From Patescibacteria group bacterium (GTDB taxonomy: Bacteria; Patescibacteriota; Minisyncoccia; Phycocordibacterales; UBA1006): a stretch of 51,073 nucleotides of DNA. The notes beneath the pieces are model-generated. The model was not told where the DNA came from. It made no database searches and worked only from the letters and a program-made list of their open reading frames with translations. The stretch is taken from contig JAGQMN010000003.1 of assembly GCA_020428645.1 (NCBI GenBank), positions 1 to 51,073 on the forward strand. The letters run 5' to 3'. The position numbers were made by a program, and so were the translations under genes. Positions 4,191 through 21,155 of the stretch are shown piece by piece (the first letter of the stretch is position 1; each line of letters starts with the position of its first letter).

Positions 4191-4218
4191 AAAAAAATAT
4201 TTATTAAGTTAAAAGAAC

Positions 4219-4244
4219 AAAAAGCGACCTCTGAGGTCGCTTTT
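4219..4244 (-). terminator. Intrinsic terminator in the proC 5' leader (attenuator terminator)
   Basis: Minus strand AAAAGCGACCTC-A-GAGGTCGCTTTTT, ending about 29 nt before the proC ATG. Confidence 0.8.
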
Positions 4245-4283
4245 CAATGTTTTATATAGAGAGTGAATTTAAAATATACAACA

Positions 4284-4349
4284 CTAACAAGCGAGCTCAA
4301 ATATGTGAGTCGCTGGTACCGGGCTAAATTGTGTTGAATATATATTCAT
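4284..4349 (-). CDS. Putative proC leader peptide, 21 aa (MNIYSTQFSPVPATHIFELAC)
   Basis: ATG at 4349, TAG at 4286-4284. Lies 7 nt downstream of a TTGACA-16-TAGTAT promoter and overlaps alternative RNA stems. Confidence 0.6.
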   Translation of the reverse strand: MNIYSTQFSPVPATHIFELAC

Positions 4350-4356
4350 ATAAGTA

Positions 4357-4384
4357 ATACTATCCCTGTATATGTTTCTGTCAA
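4357..4384 (-). promoter_or_regulatory. sigma70 promoter for the proC leader
   Basis: TTGACA (4384-4379), 16-nt spacer, TAGTAT (4362-4357). Confidence 0.6.
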
Positions 4385-4534
4385 ATCAAAAAATAATCAT
4401 ATTGGGTTATTTTTTTTCATACATCTAAAGAATTGAAGAATAGGATAAAGACCGAGGAGAGAAGAAAAAAGAACGCTCACCGTATAACGAGATACGCCTC
4501 GCGTTCTTTTTTCGTAGACGACAAAGGTATTCGC

Positions 4535-9741: not shown

Positions 9742-10348
9742 GTGAATAGGATGTACATACGGTATAAAGTGTTCCGAGGACAACCGCAAATACGATTGTC
9801 ATGAGGAGCACAGGTTCATGTAGTTGATGGTGAGTAAAGATATCTCCAATTTTTTGAAACACCGAAAACGGATGGGTGACGAGGTTCCATGTATTAAAAC
9901 GAACGTACCGACCAAGGTACACCCCAAACCCAGTAAAGAGTGCGATCACCCATACTGTCCACAAACGCCACTTGAGGAATGTTCGGAGTACGTGCACACT
10001 CAGCATCCATGCAGCAATACCGGCAATACTATACATAAAGATCATCATCGCGTCATACCAAATCATAGATTTTGGTCCCACAACAGCAATATGGATAAAA
10101 TCAGTTACGAGGTACGGTGCATTTGGTAAAAATCCAAACCAAGCGAGTATGAATATAAACGAGAGCCAGGGTTGTTTAGTACGTACCGCAAGCCAGGCAA
10201 AGAGGATAGGTAATAATGCCAAAAATAAATTCCGGTTCAGCCACAGGTACGACTCATACCCAGTCATCACAAAACGAATTACATTCATAACCACAGCCAC
10301 AAGGGAAACGAGGAGTATCATTTTCACACTTTTTACAAATAGGTGCAT
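9722..10348 (-). CDS. DUF1361-like membrane protein
   Basis: WLNRNLFLALLP, FLPNAPYLVTDFIH, GVYLGRYVRFNTW motifs. Confidence 0.85.
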   Translation of the reverse strand: MHLFVKSVKMILLVSLVAVVMNVIRFVMTGYESYLWLNRNLFLALLPILFAWLAVRTKQPWLSFIFILAWFGFLPNAPYLVTDFIHIAVVGPKSMIWYDAMMIFMYSIAGIAAWMLSVHVLRTFLKWRLWTVWVIALFTGFGVYLGRYVRFNTWNLVTHPFSVFQKIGDIFTHHQLHEPVLLMTIVFAVVLGTLYTVCTSYSHEETKN

Positions 10349-14834: not shown

Positions 14835-17800
14835 CTACGCATTTTTTATTTCTGTAATCTGAATAACAAAACGTAATGCTTCAACAGTGATTTCTTCACC
14901 GCTCGTATCAGTAAATATTATTTCAGAAATTCCTGCAGTGTGTTTAATTTCGTCACTAAACTGTTCAATTAATGCGCGACCATCAGCATCAGTCTGTACT
15001 CGCATGGTAATTACGTCGTGTGCTTGAAGACCTGCATGTTTACGTAAATCTTGAATCTGACGCAAGAGTTCACGCATGTTCCCTTCTGCCTGGAGTTCAG
15101 GGGTAATTTCGGTATCGAGCGCATACGCTCCATCAACGACTGATTTAACGTTCATTTCCTCGAGAATCAATCCATGGTGACTGTGTGGAATGGTGTTGAT
15201 TGGCGCGGTAAAGGTTTGCAGTGCCTGACGAACCTTGATTTTTGCATCAGCACGTAATTGGAGTCCGGTACTAATGATGTCCCGTGTGTGCGCCATATCG
15301 GTAATCACCGCACTCGATACACGGGTTACCTGCGGCCAACTTGTTAGGTGTACTGATTCCTCATCAGTATCAGTACGTAGAGTCTGCCATAATTCCTCGG
15401 CAACAAATGGCACACATGGTGCAATAATTTTTGCAGTTTCGCGAAGTACGTACCGTGTTGTTGATAACGCTTCAACTGATCCCTCTTTTAATCGGTCACG
15501 AGATCGGCGAATGTACCAGGTTGAAAAATCATCCACAAAATCAAATATGTATCGCGCCGCTTTATCGAGTTCGTAGATATCGAGGTTTTCAGTAATGCCA
15601 GTACGCATTTCAGCCAATCGATTCAAAATCCACTGATCAAGAACATCTCGTGACGAGGTACTATGGGTATGGGTCGCGGTGCCTTGATACATCGTGTACA
15701 ACGAAACGATATTACGCAGTCGTCCCATCACCTTTGATGCAACTTCCTGTGTTCCCTTCTCTGAAAATGCAAATTCTTCACCACGCACTACCGGTGATGC
15801 AATCAGATACAATCGTACCGCGTCTGCACCAGTCGTATCAAACATGTACTGTGGATCAGGATAGTTATTGAGTCGCTTTGACATCTTTTTGCCGTCCTCT
15901 GCCAACACGAGTCCGTTCACGATAACATTCTGAAACGGAATCTTCTTGAACAGTGCTGTTCCGAGTACCGACAGTACGTAGAACCATCCACGAGTTTGGT
16001 CGAGACCCTCGGCAATAAACTGCGCTGGAAATCGTTTCTTTTTAAAATCTTTTTTGTTCTCAAATGGATAGTGCACCTGTGCGTACGGCATTGATCCGGA
16101 ATCAAACCATACGTCAAACACATCTTCAATGCGTTTCATTGGCTCGCCGGACTTGGAGCGTACCTCTACCTGATCAATGTACGGTCGATGAAGGTCCAGT
16201 ACGTAATCATTGTTGTGCGGAAACGGTGTAAACTTGAACCGTAGAACATCAGCATTATTTGGTAATGGTTGGTGGTAGTAAAAATCACGAGCCTTTTTCT
16301 CAACACCTCGATGTGTTATAGCAAATTGAATCGTTTTGAGTATGCCACCGTGTGAAATAATAACAATATTTTTATTTTTGTATGTTTCCTCAAGCTCAAA
16401 CATGAAATCCATGATGCGCACGTACACATCACGAATAGATTCAGCATCATCGGCCAAGCGATAGTTCCAAAAATCATTCACATCTTGTGATTCTTCAACG
16501 GCGTGTGCATCATGCCACATCTTGCCCTCCCACGAACGACCTGGGTTTCGTTCGCGGAGGCGATCATCAACGATAACTTGCTCGTCAGAGAGACCAAATT
16601 CTTTTTTAATAATTATTGCAGTTTCTTCTGTACGCTGAAGCGGTGATACAAACACGTAGTCAATGTTGTTTGGTAATTTTTGCGCTGCTTGTTTTGATCG
16701 TTCACGCCCATGATCGGTCAGTGGGTTGTGTGTCGCCTGGTCAGCATTGATAACACCAGTGGTATTTGAAACCGCCTCTCCATGACGAAAACCGTAGTAC
16801 TGATTCCCTGATTGGGGTACCCGTTCCAAGAGTTTCTCAACCGAACCTGGTACAAAGAGTTCATCCTCGATCGTTTTCCACACAGGTAGTGGTGTGCCCC
16901 AGAATCGTGATCGTGACAGTGCCCAATCACGAGCACCTTCGAGCCATTTACCGAACCGTCCTTCTCCAACGTGGTCGGGCACCCAGTTCACCTTTTTATT
17001 ATTTTTGAGGAGCTTATCCGTGAGTTCAGGAACCGAAACGTACCACGAGGTAGTTGCATAGTTTAACAACGGAGTATCACACCGCCAGCAATGTGGGTAG
17101 CTGTGCTTAAAGTTTGGATCCTTAGAAAACAGTAAGTCATTCTGATCTAATATTTTAGATATAATATTATCTACCTTACGTGGTTCATCTTTTGATTTAA
17201 CTTTTAATCCTGTTAGATCAAAATCTTTAGTGAAACTATCTTTGAATTCACCATTCTTCAAAACATGCTGTACAAACGGCAGGTTGTGCATACGACCGAG
17301 TTTCATGTCGTCAGAACCAAATGCTGGTGCAATGTGTACGATTCCTGTTCCGTCTTCAGTCGTAACAAAATCAGCCGCGTACACCCTCCACCCGTTTTCG
17401 CGGTTTTCTAGGTCTGATTGCCGTTGGTAGTAATCAAAGACCGGAATATAAGATTTCCCGATGAGTTCAGTTCCCTTAAATTTGGAAACAATTTTGGGCT
17501 CACTGGAACGGAATGCTTTAGATATTCCCTCCTTGTTTTCTTCCCATATTTTTTTTGCAAGAATATAATAATTTTTAATATGAGTAGATGCTTCTAAACT
17601 CCTCTCCATGAGAGGTTGTGTATTTATTTCATTAATAAATGAATCTTCAATTTTCACATACTCAATATCCTTACCAACAGCCAAAGCAACGTTCCCTGGT
17701 AGTGTCCATGGGGTTGTCGTCCATGCCAATAGGTACGTTCCTGGTTCGTCTACGAGTTCAAACTTTGCGGTAACTGAAATGTCAGTTACATCTTCATACC

Positions 17801-18443
17801 CCTGGTTCACCTCAAAATTTGACAGTGTTGTCTCACACCGTGGGCAGAGATGCATCGCCTTGAAGTCCTCTTTGGTTAAACCTTTTTGGTACAGCTCACT
17901 AAAAATCCACCACACAGATTCCATGTAGGAGGGCTGCATCGACATGTACGGGTTCTCCATATCAATCCAACGCCCCGAACGCGGTACGTAACGTTTCCAC
18001 TCTGACTCGTAGCGAAGAACCGAATCACGCGCCGCCTCGTTGAATTTTTCAATGCCGTACTCTTCGATGTCTTTTTTGGTTTCGAGGTTAAGCTCTTTTT
18101 CAATCAGATTCTCGATAGGTAGTCCGTGACAATCCCACCCCCAGGTACGTGGTACGCGGTAGCCCTGCATGGTCTTGTAGCGTGGAATGATATCTTTGAT
18201 CGTTCCGGCGAGAAGGTGTCCGTAGTGTGGAAGTCCAGTTGCAAACGGAGGCCCATCGTAAAATACGAAATCACCTTTTGGAGACTTCTTTTCGAGGGTT
18301 TTTTGGAAGATCTGGTTTTCGTTCCAAAATTTCAACACCTGTTCCTCGGAACGAGCAGTCTGAGACTTCTCTTGTGTATTGCTTGCCCGACCATCTTGCT
18401 GGTTTAGGGTATTCGACTTGTTGGGTTCCTTTTCTTGAGCCAT
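14835..18443 (-). CDS. ileS: Isoleucine--tRNA ligase type 2 with an inserted histidine-phosphatase domain
   Basis: FYDGPPFATGLPHYGH, WDCHGLPIE, AWTTTPWTLPGN, EGLDQTRGWFY, KMSKRLNNY; RHG...SPLQRT...SHGG insert at about 16225-16800. Confidence 0.95.
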   Translation of the reverse strand: MAQEKEPNKSNTLNQQDGRASNTQEKSQTARSEEQVLKFWNENQIFQKTLEKKSPKGDFVFYDGPPFATGLPHYGHLLAGTIKDIIPRYKTMQGYRVPRTWGWDCHGLPIENLIEKELNLETKKDIEEYGIEKFNEAARDSVLRYESEWKRYVPRSGRWIDMENPYMSMQPSYMESVWWIFSELYQKGLTKEDFKAMHLCPRCETTLSNFEVNQGYEDVTDISVTAKFELVDEPGTYLLAWTTTPWTLPGNVALAVGKDIEYVKIEDSFINEINTQPLMERSLEASTHIKNYYILAKKIWEENKEGISKAFRSSEPKIVSKFKGTELIGKSYIPVFDYYQRQSDLENRENGWRVYAADFVTTEDGTGIVHIAPAFGSDDMKLGRMHNLPFVQHVLKNGEFKDSFTKDFDLTGLKVKSKDEPRKVDNIISKILDQNDLLFSKDPNFKHSYPHCWRCDTPLLNYATTSWYVSVPELTDKLLKNNKKVNWVPDHVGEGRFGKWLEGARDWALSRSRFWGTPLPVWKTIEDELFVPGSVEKLLERVPQSGNQYYGFRHGEAVSNTTGVINADQATHNPLTDHGRERSKQAAQKLPNNIDYVFVSPLQRTEETAIIIKKEFGLSDEQVIVDDRLRERNPGRSWEGKMWHDAHAVEESQDVNDFWNYRLADDAESIRDVYVRIMDFMFELEETYKNKNIVIISHGGILKTIQFAITHRGVEKKARDFYYHQPLPNNADVLRFKFTPFPHNNDYVLDLHRPYIDQVEVRSKSGEPMKRIEDVFDVWFDSGSMPYAQVHYPFENKKDFKKKRFPAQFIAEGLDQTRGWFYVLSVLGTALFKKIPFQNVIVNGLVLAEDGKKMSKRLNNYPDPQYMFDTTGADAVRLYLIASPVVRGEEFAFSEKGTQEVASKVMGRLRNIVSLYTMYQGTATHTHSTSSRDVLDQWILNRLAEMRTGITENLDIYELDKAARYIFDFVDDFSTWYIRRSRDRLKEGSVEALSTTRYVLRETAKIIAPCVPFVAEELWQTLRTDTDEESVHLTSWPQVTRVSSAVITDMAHTRDIISTGLQLRADAKIKVRQALQTFTAPINTIPHSHHGLILEEMNVKSVVDGAYALDTEITPELQAEGNMRELLRQIQDLRKHAGLQAHDVITMRVQTDADGRALIEQFSDEIKHTAGISEIIFTDTSGEEITVEALRFVIQITEIKNA

Positions 18444-18455
18444 AAATATAGTTGC

Positions 18456-18464
18456 ATTTTAGCA
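18456..18464 (-). promoter_or_regulatory. Extended -10 element immediately upstream of ileS
   Basis: TGCTAAAAT, 12 nt before the ileS ATG. Confidence 0.5.
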
Positions 18465-18504
18465 CGTATGCGCCCTAATGCCTGCTGACGCAGGCTCGGG
18501 TTAT

Positions 18505-18535
18505 AAAAGAAACCGCCGTAATCCGGGCGGTTCTT
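18505..18535 (-). terminator. Intrinsic terminator in the ileS leader (attenuator terminator)
   Basis: Minus strand AAGAACCGCC-CGGATTAC-GGCGGTTTCTTTT. Confidence 0.85.
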
Positions 18536-18566
18536 GTATAACAATCATTACAAAGTTCCCGGATTC

Positions 18567-18614
18567 TTATGCGGTCCTTGAAATAATAATTGAAATAATT
18601 GCACGTCGTTGCAT
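18567..18614 (-). CDS. Ile-rich ileS leader peptide, 15 aa (MQRRAIISIIISRTA)
   Basis: ATG CAA CGA CGT GCA ATT ATT TCA ATT ATT ATT TCA AGG ACC GCA TAA: five ATT Ile codons within six consecutive codons, upstream of a terminator and of ileS. Confidence 0.85.
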   Translation of the reverse strand: MQRRAIISIIISRTA

Positions 18615-18620
18615 GTTTTA

Positions 18621-18629
18621 ATCCTAACA
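18621..18629 (-). promoter_or_regulatory. Extended -10 for the ileS leader peptide
   Basis: TGTTAGGAT, 6 nt before the leader ATG; the same spacing is seen at many genes in the window. Confidence 0.55.
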
Positions 18630-18692
18630 GGATTTTGTTTTTTGAAAAGAAAAACCTACCAAAGAAATGTAAATCTTTCCTTGGTAGGTGGT

Positions 18693-19145
18693 TTATAATT
18701 TTTTATTAAATATTGATACAAAGGCACCAATGTAAATACCGGGATTCCAACTGGTAACGGAAGAACCGAATTCAATGAATGCCGAATTATTCCCGATCGA
18801 GTAAGTTCCTCCAACACCAACGTAGTTAAAATCTTCTATCACACCCTTCAGAGCTACACCATACCAACCAAAGTTATCTTTGATAGGTTCTATGTATACA
18901 ACACCAACACTATTGGCAAAGAGAGAATAAAAACTACTAAAAGTGCTCTTTCCTTTTGAAAAATTTAAGGTTACGAATAGGTTTGTCTGGTTGGTGAAGC
19001 CTTGATCAAAATTTTTTAAGTCAAGACCTCCTTGAGGAGCAAAAATAATTCCGGTACTTACTGACCATTTTTTTAAGCTTTCTTCTTCTTGCGAAAATGA
19101 AACAAAGGTAATCAATAAAATGAGTAGAAAAAATATTTTTTTCAT
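18693..19145 (-). CDS. Secreted hypothetical protein, possibly a small beta-barrel
   Basis: Signal peptide MKKIFFLLILLITFVSFSQ; alternating Gly/aromatic beta-strand pattern; AT-rich; hairpin at about 18652-18690 downstream. Confidence 0.65.
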   Translation of the reverse strand: MKKIFFLLILLITFVSFSQEEESLKKWSVSTGIIFAPQGGLDLKNFDQGFTNQTNLFVTLNFSKGKSTFSSFYSLFANSVGVVYIEPIKDNFGWYGVALKGVIEDFNYVGVGGTYSIGNNSAFIEFGSSVTSWNPGIYIGAFVSIFNKKL

Positions 19146-19251: not shown

Positions 19252-20949
19252 TTACATTTGCTCCAAGGCGTCGATGCCTAGTATCCACAATCCATTTTTG
19301 ATCACCTGCCCTGTCGCCTTGGTCAATGCTAACCGATACAGCGTTGCCGGATCATCTTGGTCGACAATTTTCGTGTTACCGTACCAGGTGTTAAACATCT
19401 GCGCGAGTTCCGTGACGTAGGTCACCACCTGGTGTGGAGCAAGGTCACGAAACGCAAGGTCGACAATTTCAGGGAATCGGTAGAGGTAGCGTTCGAGGTC
19501 GGTGACCTGCCACCCATCAGGTTGTTCGAGTTGCGGTTCAAGATCGAGGTGAGACGCCTTATCTAATACTGATTGTGCACGCGCGTAGGTGTACTGGAGG
19601 TACGGACCTGAATCCCCTTCAAACGACAGCGAGGTATCGGGATCGAAATTAATATTTTTACCAGCCTGGGTACGGAGAATGGTGTACTTAATCGCAGCAA
19701 TCGCAATTACATCAGCCTCGTCAGGTGTCAGCGTTCGCCCGTCAGCACGTTCGTTCACTTCCTCGACCACCGCGTCCAAAATATCAGCCACGAGTGGCGT
19801 GTTACCGAGACGTGATGACATCTTTGTTCCCTTGAATTGCATGCGCCCATGGGTCTTGTGCACCATTTTTTCATCCCAGTCAGCATTAATTTTTCCAGCA
19901 GAGGTTTTAACTACCTTGTAGTATTCTTTCTGTTCAGAATCAGTTACCAACACTGATAGGTCAGGTTGGTAACGTTCAAATTTTAGTTTTAAGAGTCCAA
20001 TATCCTTTGCCTCGTAGGTTGGGTTGCCATCTTTGTTGATAAACACGCGGGTGTGGAGTCCGTCTTGTTCTCCCTCGTAGATTACCGCACCATTTGATTC
20101 GGTGTACACGTCAGGTACATGGTTCATGACAATTTCCTTTCCTGCGATTCCTGCCTCTGATTCGAAAATGAGTCCGTCAAACGATGAGCCAAGTCGTGCA
20201 GTCATCTTTAAAAAGTAGTCGAGATTAAGGTCGCGCCCAATTTTATACGCGGCGTAGGCAGGAGTGTCTCGATGTTCGTAGATATCTTGCGTGATTTCTC
20301 GAACTCGAGCTTCAAGTTCAGGGGCAGCATCGTAGGCCTGGGTTCCTTCTGCGTAACACCGCCCAAGGAATGCCATTTTTTCTGCGACAGTTTCAAACTC
20401 GTCGAGTTTTTCAACACCATAGTCCATGAGTTTCCAAACCGCTTTTCCAATACCGAGCGACACATCAGATGGATACGAAACCACGGTGACCTCCGCCCCG
20501 CTGGTGTGTGCTAACCGAGCCATCGATTCACCAATGGTGTTGTTCATCATGTGTCCAATGTGAAATGGTTTAAAGAGGTTTGGTGATGAGTGTTCGACCA
20601 AGATTTTCTTCCCCTGCCATGCAGTATTCCACCCGTAGTTATCTGGGTTCGTAAAAATTTCCTTCACCTGGCTGAGGTAAAATTCATCGGCGAGCGTGAT
20701 GTTGATGAATCCAGGACCAGCGACCTCGATGTTCGCAATTTCTGGTGCGTTGATATTTTTTGCGATGATTTCCGCCAGTTCGAGGGGGTTTTTATTCTCG
20801 GCTTTTGCCAACATCATCGCAATATTGGTAGCGTAGTCACCGTGCGAGAGCTCGCGTGGATGCTCAAGCGTGAGATCACCGTCATAGGAAATTCCGGCCT
20901 TTTCAACTGCGGTTTTGATTGCTTGTGTGATTGTTTCGGTAATCACCAT
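19252..20949 (-). CDS. argS: Arginine--tRNA ligase
   Basis: HGDYATNIAM, AGPGFIN, EHSSPNLFKPFHIGH, KMSSRLGN, FEGDSGPYLQYTYAR. Confidence 0.97.
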   Translation of the reverse strand: MVITETITQAIKTAVEKAGISYDGDLTLEHPRELSHGDYATNIAMMLAKAENKNPLELAEIIAKNINAPEIANIEVAGPGFINITLADEFYLSQVKEIFTNPDNYGWNTAWQGKKILVEHSSPNLFKPFHIGHMMNNTIGESMARLAHTSGAEVTVVSYPSDVSLGIGKAVWKLMDYGVEKLDEFETVAEKMAFLGRCYAEGTQAYDAAPELEARVREITQDIYEHRDTPAYAAYKIGRDLNLDYFLKMTARLGSSFDGLIFESEAGIAGKEIVMNHVPDVYTESNGAVIYEGEQDGLHTRVFINKDGNPTYEAKDIGLLKLKFERYQPDLSVLVTDSEQKEYYKVVKTSAGKINADWDEKMVHKTHGRMQFKGTKMSSRLGNTPLVADILDAVVEEVNERADGRTLTPDEADVIAIAAIKYTILRTQAGKNINFDPDTSLSFEGDSGPYLQYTYARAQSVLDKASHLDLEPQLEQPDGWQVTDLERYLYRFPEIVDLAFRDLAPHQVVTYVTELAQMFNTWYGNTKIVDQDDPATLYRLALTKATGQVIKNGLWILGIDALEQM

Positions 20950-21014
20950 ATGCTTGTATTCTACATGTTTAGAGCAACAAAAAAAGAGTATTATTGAGGC
21001 ATACTCTTTTTTCA

Positions 21015-21155
21015 CTACAACATACCATTGAGTTTTCCTTCATCTCTGAGAAGGGTTTTTATATGTGTAATTACTTTCTTATTATATTTTTTTGCTGATT
21101 TTCTGATTCCTTCAGAATCAACTGGTTTTAAACCTGCAAGGAGTTTATTACCCAT
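21015..21155 (-). CDS. Small hypothetical ORF, 46 aa (MGNKLLAGLKPVDSEGIRKSAKKYNKK...GKLNGML)
   Basis: Manual translation; fills an otherwise empty 280-nt gap between argS and the next gene. Confidence 0.35.
   Translation of the reverse strand: MGNKLLAGLKPVDSEGIRKSAKKYNKKVITHIKTLLRDEGKLNGML

What the first reader, a model, noticed from the sequence alone, without database searches (positions are those of the whole stretch)
18480..18650. Complete Ile-sensing leader-peptide attenuator upstream of ileS in a CPR genome
Seen on the minus strand, in order: (1) an extended -10 TGTTAGGAT; (2) 6 nt later a 15-codon ORF MQRRAIISIIISRTA with five ATT Ile codons (18614-18567); (3) one base after the stop, AATCCGGG (18565-18558); (4) a terminator AAGAACCGCC-CGGATTAC-GGCGGTTTCTTTT (18535-18505). 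AATCCGGG is the exact reverse complement of CCCGGATT, which spans the terminator 5' arm and loop. GGACCGC in the last leader codons can pair with GCGGTTT of the 3' arm, giving a nested a-b-b'-a' antiterminator. Established: this is the E. coli ilv/thr/pheST attenuation logic, whereas ileS in Firmicutes and Actinobacteria is usually T-box controlled. Inference: a ribosome at the stop codon masks the antiterminator and transcription terminates, while stalling on Ile codons frees it and allows read-through. CPR bacteria are generally assumed to have minimal regulation and to lack BCAA synthesis, so this would tune IleRS to scavenged Ile. A second -10 (TGCTAAAAT, 18464-18456) downstream of the terminator may supply basal expression.
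Basis: partly seen in the sequence, partly recalled or inferred. Interest (0 to 1): 0.88.

Follow-up and report, generated by a model that had tools for sequence, protein, structure and literature searches.

The report
Isoleucine leader-peptide attenuator before ileS
A tiny isoleucine-rich mini-gene, an RNA switch and a transcription stop signal sit in front of the isoleucyl-tRNA synthetase gene of one genus of ultra-small (CPR/Paceibacteria) bacteria. This is the textbook ribosome-stalling sensor, found in a new lineage at the spot where sister genera carry a T-box riboswitch.

Summary
On the minus strand there is a promoter, then a 15-codon ORF, MQRRAIISIIISRTA, starting 6 nt after the -10. 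The box AATCCGGG follows the stop codon, an intrinsic terminator comes next, and ileS starts 60 nt further on.

It is not chance. A covariance model hits once per genome, always just upstream of ileS. It matched 12 of 18 species of this genus, 0 of 15 other genera of the family, and 1 of 223 genera of the order. Of 12 further environmental ileS contexts, 11 carry the leader.

Across 23 leaders the Ile codons, the promoter with its exact 6-nt leaderless spacing, a hairpin holding the stop codon, the post-stop box and the terminator are all kept while the sequences change.

With a ribosome placed on the last Ile codon, the box pairs with the terminator 5' arm in 22 of 23 leaders (mean -12.6 kcal/mol). 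With a ribosome on the stop codon this happens in 1 of 23.

Covariation is strong for the terminator and only modest for the antiterminator. Sister genera have an Ile-specific T-box at the same place.

No transcript or experimental data could be obtained. Verdict: a real, very probably functional Ile-sensing attenuator, and a new member of a known kind.

The parts
18644..18689 (-). Intrinsic terminator of the upstream gene (18693-19145). It isolates the leader from upstream transcription.
   Evidence: 14-pair stem plus T-run
18643..18648 (-). Promoter P1 -35 hexamer TTTTCA, 16 nt from the -10
   Evidence: A -35 hexamer close to TTTACA (TTTGCA, TTTTCA and other near variants) lies 16 nt before the -10 in 22 of 23 leaders
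18621..18629 (-). Promoter P1 extended -10 TGTTAGGAT, exactly 6 nt before the leader ATG. The leader peptide mRNA is therefore predicted to be leaderless.
   Evidence: 6-nt gap in all 23 leaders; the TG extension in 21, and a -10 of the form TAnnnT in 22. The genome-wide peak of -10-to-ATG distance is at 6-9 nt, and only 19 of 556 ORFs have an SD-like core
18567..18614 (-). Leader ORF MQRRAIISIIISRTA* (15 codons plus TAA). Ile codons lie at 18599-18594 and 18590-18582.
   Evidence: Homologous peptides in relatives follow M-x-x-x-(A)-I-I-I-[STNE]-I-I-x-x-T-A*
18583..18592 (-). Segment 1: the Ile-codon run CAAUUAUUAU, which pairs with 18551-18542 (the 1:2 or anti-antiterminator hairpin)
   Evidence: Ile codons pair downstream in the MFE fold of all 23 leaders. 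Swap test p=0.016
18553..18579 (-). Inner hairpin AAG..CCG / CGG..CUU with the stop codon (18569-18567) in its loop
   Evidence: The same hairpin is built from different letters (CUCUUU:AAAGGG) in divergent leaders L174 and L177
18558..18565 (-). Antiterminator box AAUCCGGG (segment 2), starting 1 nt after the stop codon
18542..18551 (-). AU-rich 3' strand of the 1:2 hairpin (GUAAUGAUUG)
18520..18527 (-). CCCGGAUU (segment 3): the last two bases of the terminator 5' arm plus loop, partner of the box
18505..18535 (-). Intrinsic terminator (segments 3:4) with U-tract
   Evidence: Covariation: 89.6% of cells paired, 51 compensatory cells, 0 of 500 shuffles
18456..18464 (-). Second promoter P2, extended -10 TGCTAAAAT, 12 nt before the ileS ATG. 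It is the probable basal promoter.
   Evidence: extended -10 in 17 of 23 leader-bearing loci. It is also present in relatives without a leader
14835..18443 (-). ileS, the regulated gene: a 1202-aa IleRS with an inserted histidine-phosphatase domain

Best explanation
This is a ribosome-mediated (leader-peptide) transcription attenuator that adjusts ileS transcription to the supply of charged tRNA-Ile.

**Proposed mechanism**
- Promoter P1 starts the RNA at or next to the AUG of a 15-codon leader ORF, so the mRNA is leaderless. A ribosome can load as soon as the 5' end emerges.
- When Ile-tRNA is plentiful, the ribosome runs to the stop codon. Its footprint then covers the box AAUCCGGG, which begins 1 nt after the stop. 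The terminator hairpin forms and transcription ends near 18505.
- When Ile-tRNA is scarce, the ribosome stalls on the last Ile codons. It covers the 5' strand of the 1:2 hairpin but leaves the box free, because the box pairing starts 16-20 nt beyond the last Ile codon.
- The free box pairs with the terminator 5' arm before the 3' arm is made. RNA polymerase then reads through into ileS, adding to the basal transcription from P2.
- With no translation at all, the Ile codons pair with the AU-rich segment and the box is held in the stop-codon hairpin, so termination wins.

**Shown versus inferred**
- Shown in silico: the sequence anatomy, its conservation, and folding that depends on ribosome position.
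- Inferred: the transcription start, the coupling of translation to transcription, and the response to isoleucine.
For: **Anatomy:** exact in the window.

**Synteny and specificity**
- Model R1 hits once per genome, always immediately upstream of ileS, in 12 of 18 species of the genus.
- One further species has a partial copy at a contig end, and one has a variant.
- R1 hits 0 of 37 genomes in the 15 other genera of the family and 1 of 223 genera of the order.
- It hits 3 of 80 metagenome ileS loci.
- Of 12 extra ileS contexts, 10 score at E<=4e-5 and an eleventh, degenerate copy scores E=0.38.
- No other CPR ileS upstream region has an Ile-rich short ORF at promoter distance.

**Codon-level signal**
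- Ile positions are kept with ATT/ATC/ATA changes, while the interrupting codon varies (S/T/N/E).
- Ile is 7.9% of codons genome-wide.

**Folding on 23 leaders**
- The antiterminator forms in 22 of 23 with a ribosome on the last Ile codon (mean -12.6 kcal/mol).
- It forms in 1 of 23 with a ribosome on the stop codon (mean -3.0).
- In 13 leaders tested, the best partner of the terminator 5' arm anywhere in the leader lies within -6 to +5 nt of the stop codon in every case.

**Covariation**
- Terminator: 89.6% paired, 51 compensatory cells, 0 of 500 shuffles.
- Antiterminator: 71.9% paired in register against 13-51% when slid. Covariation score is 0.186 against 0.142 +/- 0.021, reached by 9 of 500 shuffles.
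- Divergent members have their own complements: AAUCCGGG:CCCGGAUU here, GUAUUCGGG:CCCGAAUAC in G006, UUAGGACA:UGUCCUAA in G003, and GGGCG:CGCCC or GGGCU:AGCCC in class B.

**Same signal, same site:** sister genera carry a T-box directly upstream of ileS, with AUC-A in the stem-I loop.

**Physiology:** no ilvD or ilvC was found. The genome is nearly free of SD sequences and rich in leaderless promoter-ATG geometry.
Against:
- Antiterminator covariation is modest. It was not above shuffles with 13 sequences and was nominally about 0.02 with 23. The tool itself warns that related sequences can reach such values without any structure.
- A swap test between genomes gave p=0.086, and box shuffles gave a mean z of only -1.6.
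- In five of the 13 leaders so tested the box:arm duplex is only -8 to -10 kcal/mol.
- A conserved promoter P2 lies downstream of the terminator, so the attenuator can modulate only part of ileS transcription.
- How the internal, SD-less ileS AUG is translated on read-through RNA is unknown.
- Transcription-translation coupling has not been shown in CPR bacteria.
- Three to four members of the clade have lost or degraded the leader, so it is dispensable.
Confidence: 0.8

Rival explanations
1. An independent small transcription unit. P1, the short ORF and the terminator would make a hydrophobic micro-peptide or a roughly 110-nt small RNA with a function of its own. ileS would be expressed only from P2, and the position next to ileS would be incidental.
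For: The unit has its own promoter and terminator, and a conserved promoter P2 lies between it and ileS. The C-terminal T-A is conserved.
Against: - It is always found directly upstream of ileS and nowhere else, in about 25 genomes or contigs, even though the upstream neighbours differ.
- Only the Ile positions are conserved as amino acids. The ACC GCA (T-A) codons coincide with the CCG strand of the stop-codon hairpin.
- Two genomes tolerate a 26-codon in-frame insertion in the peptide.
- The ribosome-position-dependent alternative folds have no role in this reading.
- Sister genera have an Ile T-box at the same place.
Confidence: 0.08
2. An attenuator that reports general translation capacity or ribosome availability rather than isoleucine specifically. 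Any slowing of the leader ribosome would give read-through. Alternatively, it could act through Rho or ribosome-RNAP contact rather than through the antiterminator helix.
For: Antiterminator covariation is only modest. Leaderless initiation is itself sensitive to the state of the ribosome.
Against: Four to seven of 14-16 codons are Ile in nearly every leader, and they sit exactly where a stalled ribosome would cover the 5' strand of the 1:2 hairpin. The regulated gene is the Ile-specific synthetase. The displaced T-boxes carry Ile specifiers.
Confidence: 0.08
3. A chance ORF in an AT-rich spacer next to an ordinary terminator, with no function.
For: The genome is AT-rich and ATT is the commonest Ile codon.
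Against: Frame, promoter spacing, Ile run, box and terminator are conserved across IleRS proteins only 55-83% identical. The genome-wide background is 23 of 13,317 short ORFs. None was found in about 110 other ileS upstream regions.
Confidence: 0.02

Closest known systems
E. coli pheST attenuator (pheM leader peptide) and the classical trp/his/leu/thr/ilv leader-peptide attenuators
   Same: A short ORF enriched in the cognate codons. It has 1:2, 2:3 and 3:4 alternative hairpins and an intrinsic terminator. A ribosome at the stop codon masks segment 2. As with pheST, the target is the cognate aminoacyl-tRNA synthetase, which gives feedback on tRNA charging (own knowledge; PMC1262725 cites pheST).
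   Different: There is no sequence or Rfam relationship. The leader mRNA is predicted to be leaderless, with no SD. The target is ileS. A second promoter lies downstream of the terminator. The lineage is CPR/Paceibacteria.
Leaderless leader peptides upstream of alaS, thrS, trpS and leuS in Streptomyces lividans (PMC8079986), and predicted trpS/leuS attenuators in Streptomyces (PMC1262725)
   Same: A leaderless short ORF with cognate codons, followed by a hairpin and in some cases a U-tract, in front of a synthetase gene.
   Different: That list has no ileS case, because Actinobacteria use a T-box at ileS (PMC1262725). Those peptides carry one to six cognate codons: one in trpL2, two in thrL, three in leuL2 and six in alaL. 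Several lack a clear terminator. The element here has all the classical parts and is unrelated in sequence.
T-box riboswitch at ileS (RF00230)
   Same: Same gene, same position and same signal (tRNA-Ile charging), with read-out by terminator or antiterminator. It is present upstream of ileS in sister genera of the same family.
   Different: The window has no T-box at ileS. Sensing is by a translating ribosome, not by direct tRNA binding.
Mycobacterial leaderless poly-cysteine short ORFs (bioRxiv 10.1101/834739; PMC4633059)
   Same: A leaderless short ORF rich in one amino acid acts as a cis sensor for downstream genes.
   Different: No terminator/antiterminator switch was reported for the actinobacterial cys leader peptides (PMC1262725). 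Here a canonical intrinsic terminator is present.

Membership tests
Ribosome-mediated leader-peptide transcription attenuator | Short ORF in the 5' leader, enriched in codons of the amino acid linked to the regulated gene | tested here: met
   5 Ile in 15 codons upstream of ileS. Most of the 23 leaders have 4-7 Ile codons in 14-16 codons; the exceptions are two long forms and one degenerate copy (L178, three Ile). Background is 23 of 13,317 short ORFs.
Ribosome-mediated leader-peptide transcription attenuator | Intrinsic terminator between the leader ORF and the regulated gene | tested here: met
   Covariation: 89.6% paired, 0 of 500 shuffles.
Ribosome-mediated leader-peptide transcription attenuator | Antiterminator that excludes the terminator and forms only when the ribosome stalls on the regulatory codons | tested here: inconclusive
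   Folding: formed in 22 of 23 with a stalled ribosome and in 1 of 23 with a ribosome at the stop. It is register-specific, 71.9% against 51% or less. Covariation is only modest (9 of 500; not above shuffles; swap test p=0.086).
Ribosome-mediated leader-peptide transcription attenuator | 1:2 pairing that sequesters segment 2 when the leader is not translated | tested here: met
   Ile codons pair with the AU-rich segment, and the stop codon sits in the apical hairpin, in all MFE folds. Swap test p=0.016.
Ribosome-mediated leader-peptide transcription attenuator | Conservation of the arrangement in relatives at the same gene | tested here: met
Ribosome-mediated leader-peptide transcription attenuator | Amino-acid-dependent read-through shown experimentally, and transcript ends at the predicted sites | not testable with these tools
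The organism is uncultured.
T-box leader (RF00230) | Match to the T-box covariance model, or the conserved T-box sequence AGGGUGGUACCGCG | tested here: not met
   No hit in the window at gathering threshold or at E<=10 in 18350-18800. Sister genera do match.
Any Rfam leader or cis-regulatory family | Covariance-model match | tested here: not met
   only chance-level hits

The most novel reading that the evidence does not exclude
Within one family of CPR bacteria, a tRNA-binding T-box at ileS was replaced by a newly evolved leaderless leader-peptide attenuator that reads the same signal through the ribosome. If it works, translation must follow RNA polymerase closely within the first 100 nt or so of an mRNA in these SD-less, largely leaderless organisms. 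That would be the first handle on transcription-translation coupling and amino-acid sensing in the Candidate Phyla Radiation. Earlier unchecked notes of this scan report similar ileS leaders in other CPR lineages, which hints at repeated convergent invention.
Probability: 0.6. Interest if true: 0.7.

Novelty: new member of a known kind. Interest (0 to 1): 0.6.

Why it matters
CPR/Patescibacteria are uncultured, have tiny genomes, and are usually described as having little regulation. This element is an unusually clean and testable regulatory device in such a genome. It would couple synthesis of IleRS to the charging of tRNA-Ile in an organism that must import isoleucine.

It shows an RNA sensor (T-box) exchanged for a ribosome sensor at the same gene within one family. 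It suggests that a 70S ribosome loaded on a 5'-terminal AUG can keep pace with RNA polymerase in this lineage. It also gives about 25 natural sequence variants on which to design reporter and in vitro experiments.

The mechanism itself is textbook. Leaderless leader peptides before synthetase genes are already reported in Streptomyces. The advance is therefore in lineage, target gene and evolutionary history, not in principle.

Tried and rejected
- **Rfam:** nothing at gathering threshold in the whole window and only chance hits around the site.
- **MAFFT plus RNAalifold on 10 leaders:** recovered only the terminator and three pairs of the stop hairpin, because the AU-rich strands slip. I therefore used anchored, N-padded alignments (A2, A3).
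- **First antiterminator count (13 sequences, with a bulge):** no covariation above shuffles.
- **Cross-genome swap test for the antiterminator:** not significant (p=0.086).
- **Dinucleotide shuffles of the box:** mean z of only -1.6.
rejected as a conserved feature.
- **Search for further leaderless leader peptides before other genes in this genome:** five candidates with terminators, and only this one has a strong single-residue bias.
- **Ile-rich ORFs upstream of ileS in other lineages (L119, L121-123, L156):** these are antisense or chance reading frames of neighbouring genes.
- **Metagenome scan:** added only 3 leaders out of 80 loci.
- **The look-up of sequencing runs:** closed, so no read data.
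- **Literature:** searches for CPR/Patescibacteria together with leader peptide or T-box found no paper describing such an element.

Full report
**1. The observation**

Reading 18300-18800 on the minus strand confirms every element at the stated coordinates.
- The upstream gene (18693-19145) ends in its own strong terminator (18689-18654 plus T-run).
- Next come a -35-like TTTTCA (18648-18643) and the extended -10 TGTTAGGAT (18629-18621).
- Exactly 6 nt later the ORF ATG...TAA (18614-18567) encodes MQRRAIISIIISRTA, with five ATT codons.
- AATCCGGG (18565-18558) starts one base after the stop.
- The terminator AAGAACCGCC-CGGATTAC-GGCGGTTTCTTTT lies at 18535-18505.
- A second extended -10, TGCTAAAAT (18464-18456), lies 12 nt before the ileS ATG (18443).

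ileS encodes a 1202-aa class I synthetase with a His_Phos_1 domain inserted. Rfam has no family for the region.

**2. Folding of the window's leader**

The full leader folds at -29.7 kcal/mol, better than all 200 shuffles (z = -3.6).

The Ile-codon run (18592-18583) pairs with an AU-rich segment (18551-18542). Inside that stem a small hairpin (AAG..CCG / CGG..CUU) holds the stop codon in its loop. The terminator follows directly. This is the classical 1:2 hairpin followed by 3:4.

When the RNA is cut before the terminator's 3' arm, AAUCCGGG pairs with CCCGGAUU.

**3. Conservation**

The genome is a 720-kb, 88%-complete CPR genome. Sources label close IleRS relatives as Candidatus Paceibacteria or Pacebacteria.

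Upstream regions of ileS from species-representative genomes show the same design across the genus. Examples of the peptides are MHNRAIIISIIENTAS, MHINAIIITIIETTA, MQTNAIIITIIETTA, MYSPIIIISIIGYSAA, MHKAIIISIIQYTA, MHTTIIINIIQKTA, MLNNIIISIIIQKTT and MQTRVAIIEIIEKTA. In each, the stop codon is followed by a box like xUUCGGGUUUC, an AU-rich segment and a GC hairpin with a T-run.

A covariance model built from ten leaders gave these results:
- It hits exactly once per genome, always at ileS, in 12 of 18 species of the genus.
- It hits 0 of 37 genomes in the 15 other genera of the family.
- It hits 3 of 401 genomes of the order, all from this genus, which is 1 of 223 genera.

The remaining six species of the genus break down as follows:
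- G015 has the 3' half at a contig end.
- G003 has a divergent copy with an in-frame TGA.
- G017 keeps only the promoter and an ATG-TAA remnant.
- G001 has none.
- G002 and G007 cannot be assessed.

A metagenome scan added three leaders from 80 IleRS loci. Twelve further IleRS contexts were taken from Logan, ENA, JGI and NCBI assemblies. Ten matched the model at E<=4e-5. An eleventh, L178, is a degenerate copy (E=0.38, three Ile codons). One of the ten is identical to the G016 leader, and one locus, L171, has no leader.

Among these is a divergent class with a different box (AAAGGGCG or AAAGGGCU), different terminators and a different stop-codon hairpin (CUCUUU:AAAGGG).

In about 110 ileS upstream regions from other lineages, no Ile-rich short ORF sits at promoter distance. 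The few Ile-rich frames found there are antisense or chance frames of neighbouring genes.

**4. Promoter and leaderless start**

In 22 of 23 leaders a -35 hexamer close to TTTACA lies 16 nt from a -10 of the form TAnnnT. The TG extension is present in 21. The -10 ends exactly 6 nt before the ATG in all 23.

Genome-wide, only 19 of 556 long ORFs have an SD-like core. The distance from an extended -10 to the ATG peaks sharply at 6-9 nt. Leaderless initiation therefore looks like the norm in this organism, and the leader peptide follows it.

A second promoter-like extended -10 lies just before ileS in 17 of 23 leader-bearing loci. It is also present in relatives without a leader.

**5. Mechanism tested by constrained folding**

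For each of 23 leaders I folded the nascent RNA up to the terminator's 3' arm. In each fold the ribosome-covered part was forced single-stranded.

| Ribosome position | Leaders in which the terminator's CCC pairs with the post-stop box | Mean energy |
|---|---|---|
| On the last Ile codon (covered to +12 nt) | 22 of 23 | -12.6 kcal/mol (range -8.3 to -17.7) |
| On the stop codon | 1 of 23 | -3.0 kcal/mol |

The single exception with the ribosome at the stop is L175, whose stop codon lies three codons early.

The geometry fits (13 leaders):
- The box pairing begins 0-4 nt after the stop codon.
- The box pairing begins 16-20 nt after the last Ile codon.
- The best partner of the terminator 5' arm anywhere in the leader lies within -6 to +5 nt of the stop codon in all 13.

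In most relatives the box (CGGGUUUCUU) mimics the terminator's 3' arm and pairs with the entire 5' arm (AGGAGCGCCCG).

**6. Covariation**

| Helix | Sequences | Cells paired | Controls |
|---|---|---|---|
| Terminator | 23 | 89.6% | 51 compensatory cells; 0 of 500 shuffles reach it |
| Antiterminator | 23 | 71.9% in register | 13-51% when slid; 5 pairs changed on both sides; score 0.186 against 0.142 +/- 0.021, reached by 9 of 500 shuffles |
| Antiterminator (with bulge) | 13 | 75.3% | not above shuffles |

- A cross-genome swap test gave p=0.086 for the antiterminator and p=0.016 for the Ile-run:AU-segment helix.
- Divergent members carry their own exact complements: AAUCCGGG:CCCGGAUU here, GUAUUCGGG:CCCGAAUAC in G006, UUAGGACA:UGUCCUAA in G003, and GGGCG:CGCCC or GGGCU:AGCCC in class B.

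I read this as real but statistically modest support. A larger alignment is needed.

**7. What it replaced**

In sister genera of the same family a T-box lies directly upstream of ileS. This holds for G018, G019, G020, G021, G023 and G024, by comparing coordinates.

Rfam E-values were 6e-13 to 7e-8 for the four of these loci scanned (G019, G021, G023, G024). They fall below the gathering score because stem I is very short. Their stem-I loops read ...AUCA..., an Ile codon followed by a purine (sequences).

The genus itself still uses T-boxes elsewhere. In this genome one lies at C2:9039-9213, upstream of small ORFs and an AspRS-like gene.

On an IleRS N-terminal tree, the leader-bearing sequences form one clade (SH-aLRT 95) that is sister to a T-box-bearing genus. 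The leader-less members are nested inside that clade (a quick tree with limited resolution). The simplest history is one replacement of the T-box by the leader peptide, followed by a few losses.

**8. Physiology**

No ilvD or ilvC homologue is present. Isoleucine must therefore be imported, within the limits of 88% completeness.

The leader uses ATT and ATC codons, which are read by the single tRNA-Ile(GAU) gene found. A fall in IleRS activity or in isoleucine would lower charged tRNA-Ile, stall the leader ribosome and raise ileS transcription. This is the same feedback logic as pheST in E. coli or a T-box.

**9. Comparison with known systems and novelty**

It works like, and meets the sequence-level criteria of, a classical leader-peptide attenuator.

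Prior cases:
- Attenuators before synthetase genes are known for pheST and predicted for trpS and leuS in Streptomyces (PMC1262725).
- Leaderless leader peptides before alaS, thrS, trpS and leuS were mapped by RNA-seq in S. lividans (PMC8079986).
- Leaderless Cys-rich ORFs act as sensors in mycobacteria (10.1101/834739).

I found no report of an ileS leader peptide or of any leader-peptide attenuator in CPR bacteria. Earlier unchecked notes of this scan describe similar ileS leaders in other CPR lineages. They agree with this reading but are not independent evidence.

I therefore class it as a new member of a known kind.

**10. Limits**

- Nothing here shows transcription, termination or an isoleucine response.
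- P2 downstream of the terminator limits how much control the element can exert.
- Coupling of translation to transcription in CPR bacteria is assumed, not known.

Noticed in passing
window 16299-16787 (-), IleRS residues 553-715: A histidine-phosphatase (His_Phos_1, PF00300) domain is inserted inside IleRS (E 6e-30). Nearly all of the 120 closest IleRS clusters carry it too (PF00300 listed). It is therefore a lineage-wide feature, not an assembly artefact.
   Followed up: partly
whole genome G000: Only 19 of 556 long ORFs have an SD-like core. The distance from TGnTAnnnT to the ATG peaks at 6-9 nt. The organism appears to rely largely on leaderless or SD-independent initiation.
   Followed up: partly
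G000 contig C2:9039-9213 (+), outside the window: The only T-box-like element of this genome (E 5e-4, AACCAGGGTGGCACCGCGG plus a terminator-like hairpin). It lies upstream of small hydrophobic ORFs and an AspRS/AsnRS-like gene starting at 9966.
   Followed up: partly
L002 (G010) and L071 (G013), leader ORFs: Two genomes carry a 78-nt in-frame insertion in the middle of the leader ORF, giving 41 codons. It contains a strong hairpin (e.g. AGTACTAAAATTAATTTTAGTACT) and 2-3 Arg codons. The second Ile run, the box and the terminator are kept.
   Followed up: no
L007 (G003) and L006 (G017), upstream of ileS: G003 has a divergent leader, MLN(TGA)IIIPIIRENSILIRTI. It has an in-frame TGA at codon 4 and its own perfect box:arm complement UUAGGACA:UGUCCUAA. 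G017 keeps the promoter but the ORF is reduced to ATG-TAA. These look like stages of decay, or the TGA could be a sequencing error.
   Followed up: partly
L175 (Logan SRR28113954 contig), leader: This leader ends three codons early (MITNIIISIIIS*). A ribosome at its stop codon would therefore not cover the box. It is the one case where the model predicts constitutive antitermination.
   Followed up: no
G000 contig C5:16413 (+), outside the window: A short leaderless ORF, MKHKLINPSVHD, overlaps a strong terminator directly upstream of a CTP-synthase-like gene (MKKHKPTRKYIFVLGGVMSGVGKG...). It may be a pyrG-type attenuator.
   Followed up: no
G000, tRNA genes: ARAGORN finds tRNA-Ile with anticodon UAU twice, one copy at a contig edge, besides one tRNA-Ile(GAU). 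ATA codons may therefore be read by a UAU tRNA rather than by a lysidine-modified CAU tRNA.
   Followed up: no
window 18693-19145 (-): The upstream gene encodes a 150-aa protein with a signal-peptide-like N-terminus and no Pfam match. argS lies further upstream (19252-21015). In some relatives argS directly abuts the leader or ileS.
   Followed up: no
window 4200-4390 (-): An earlier first-reader note (e1-5230152) reports a second candidate leader peptide upstream of proC. My scan for extended -10 plus short ORF plus terminator did not pick it up, and I did not examine it.
   Followed up: no
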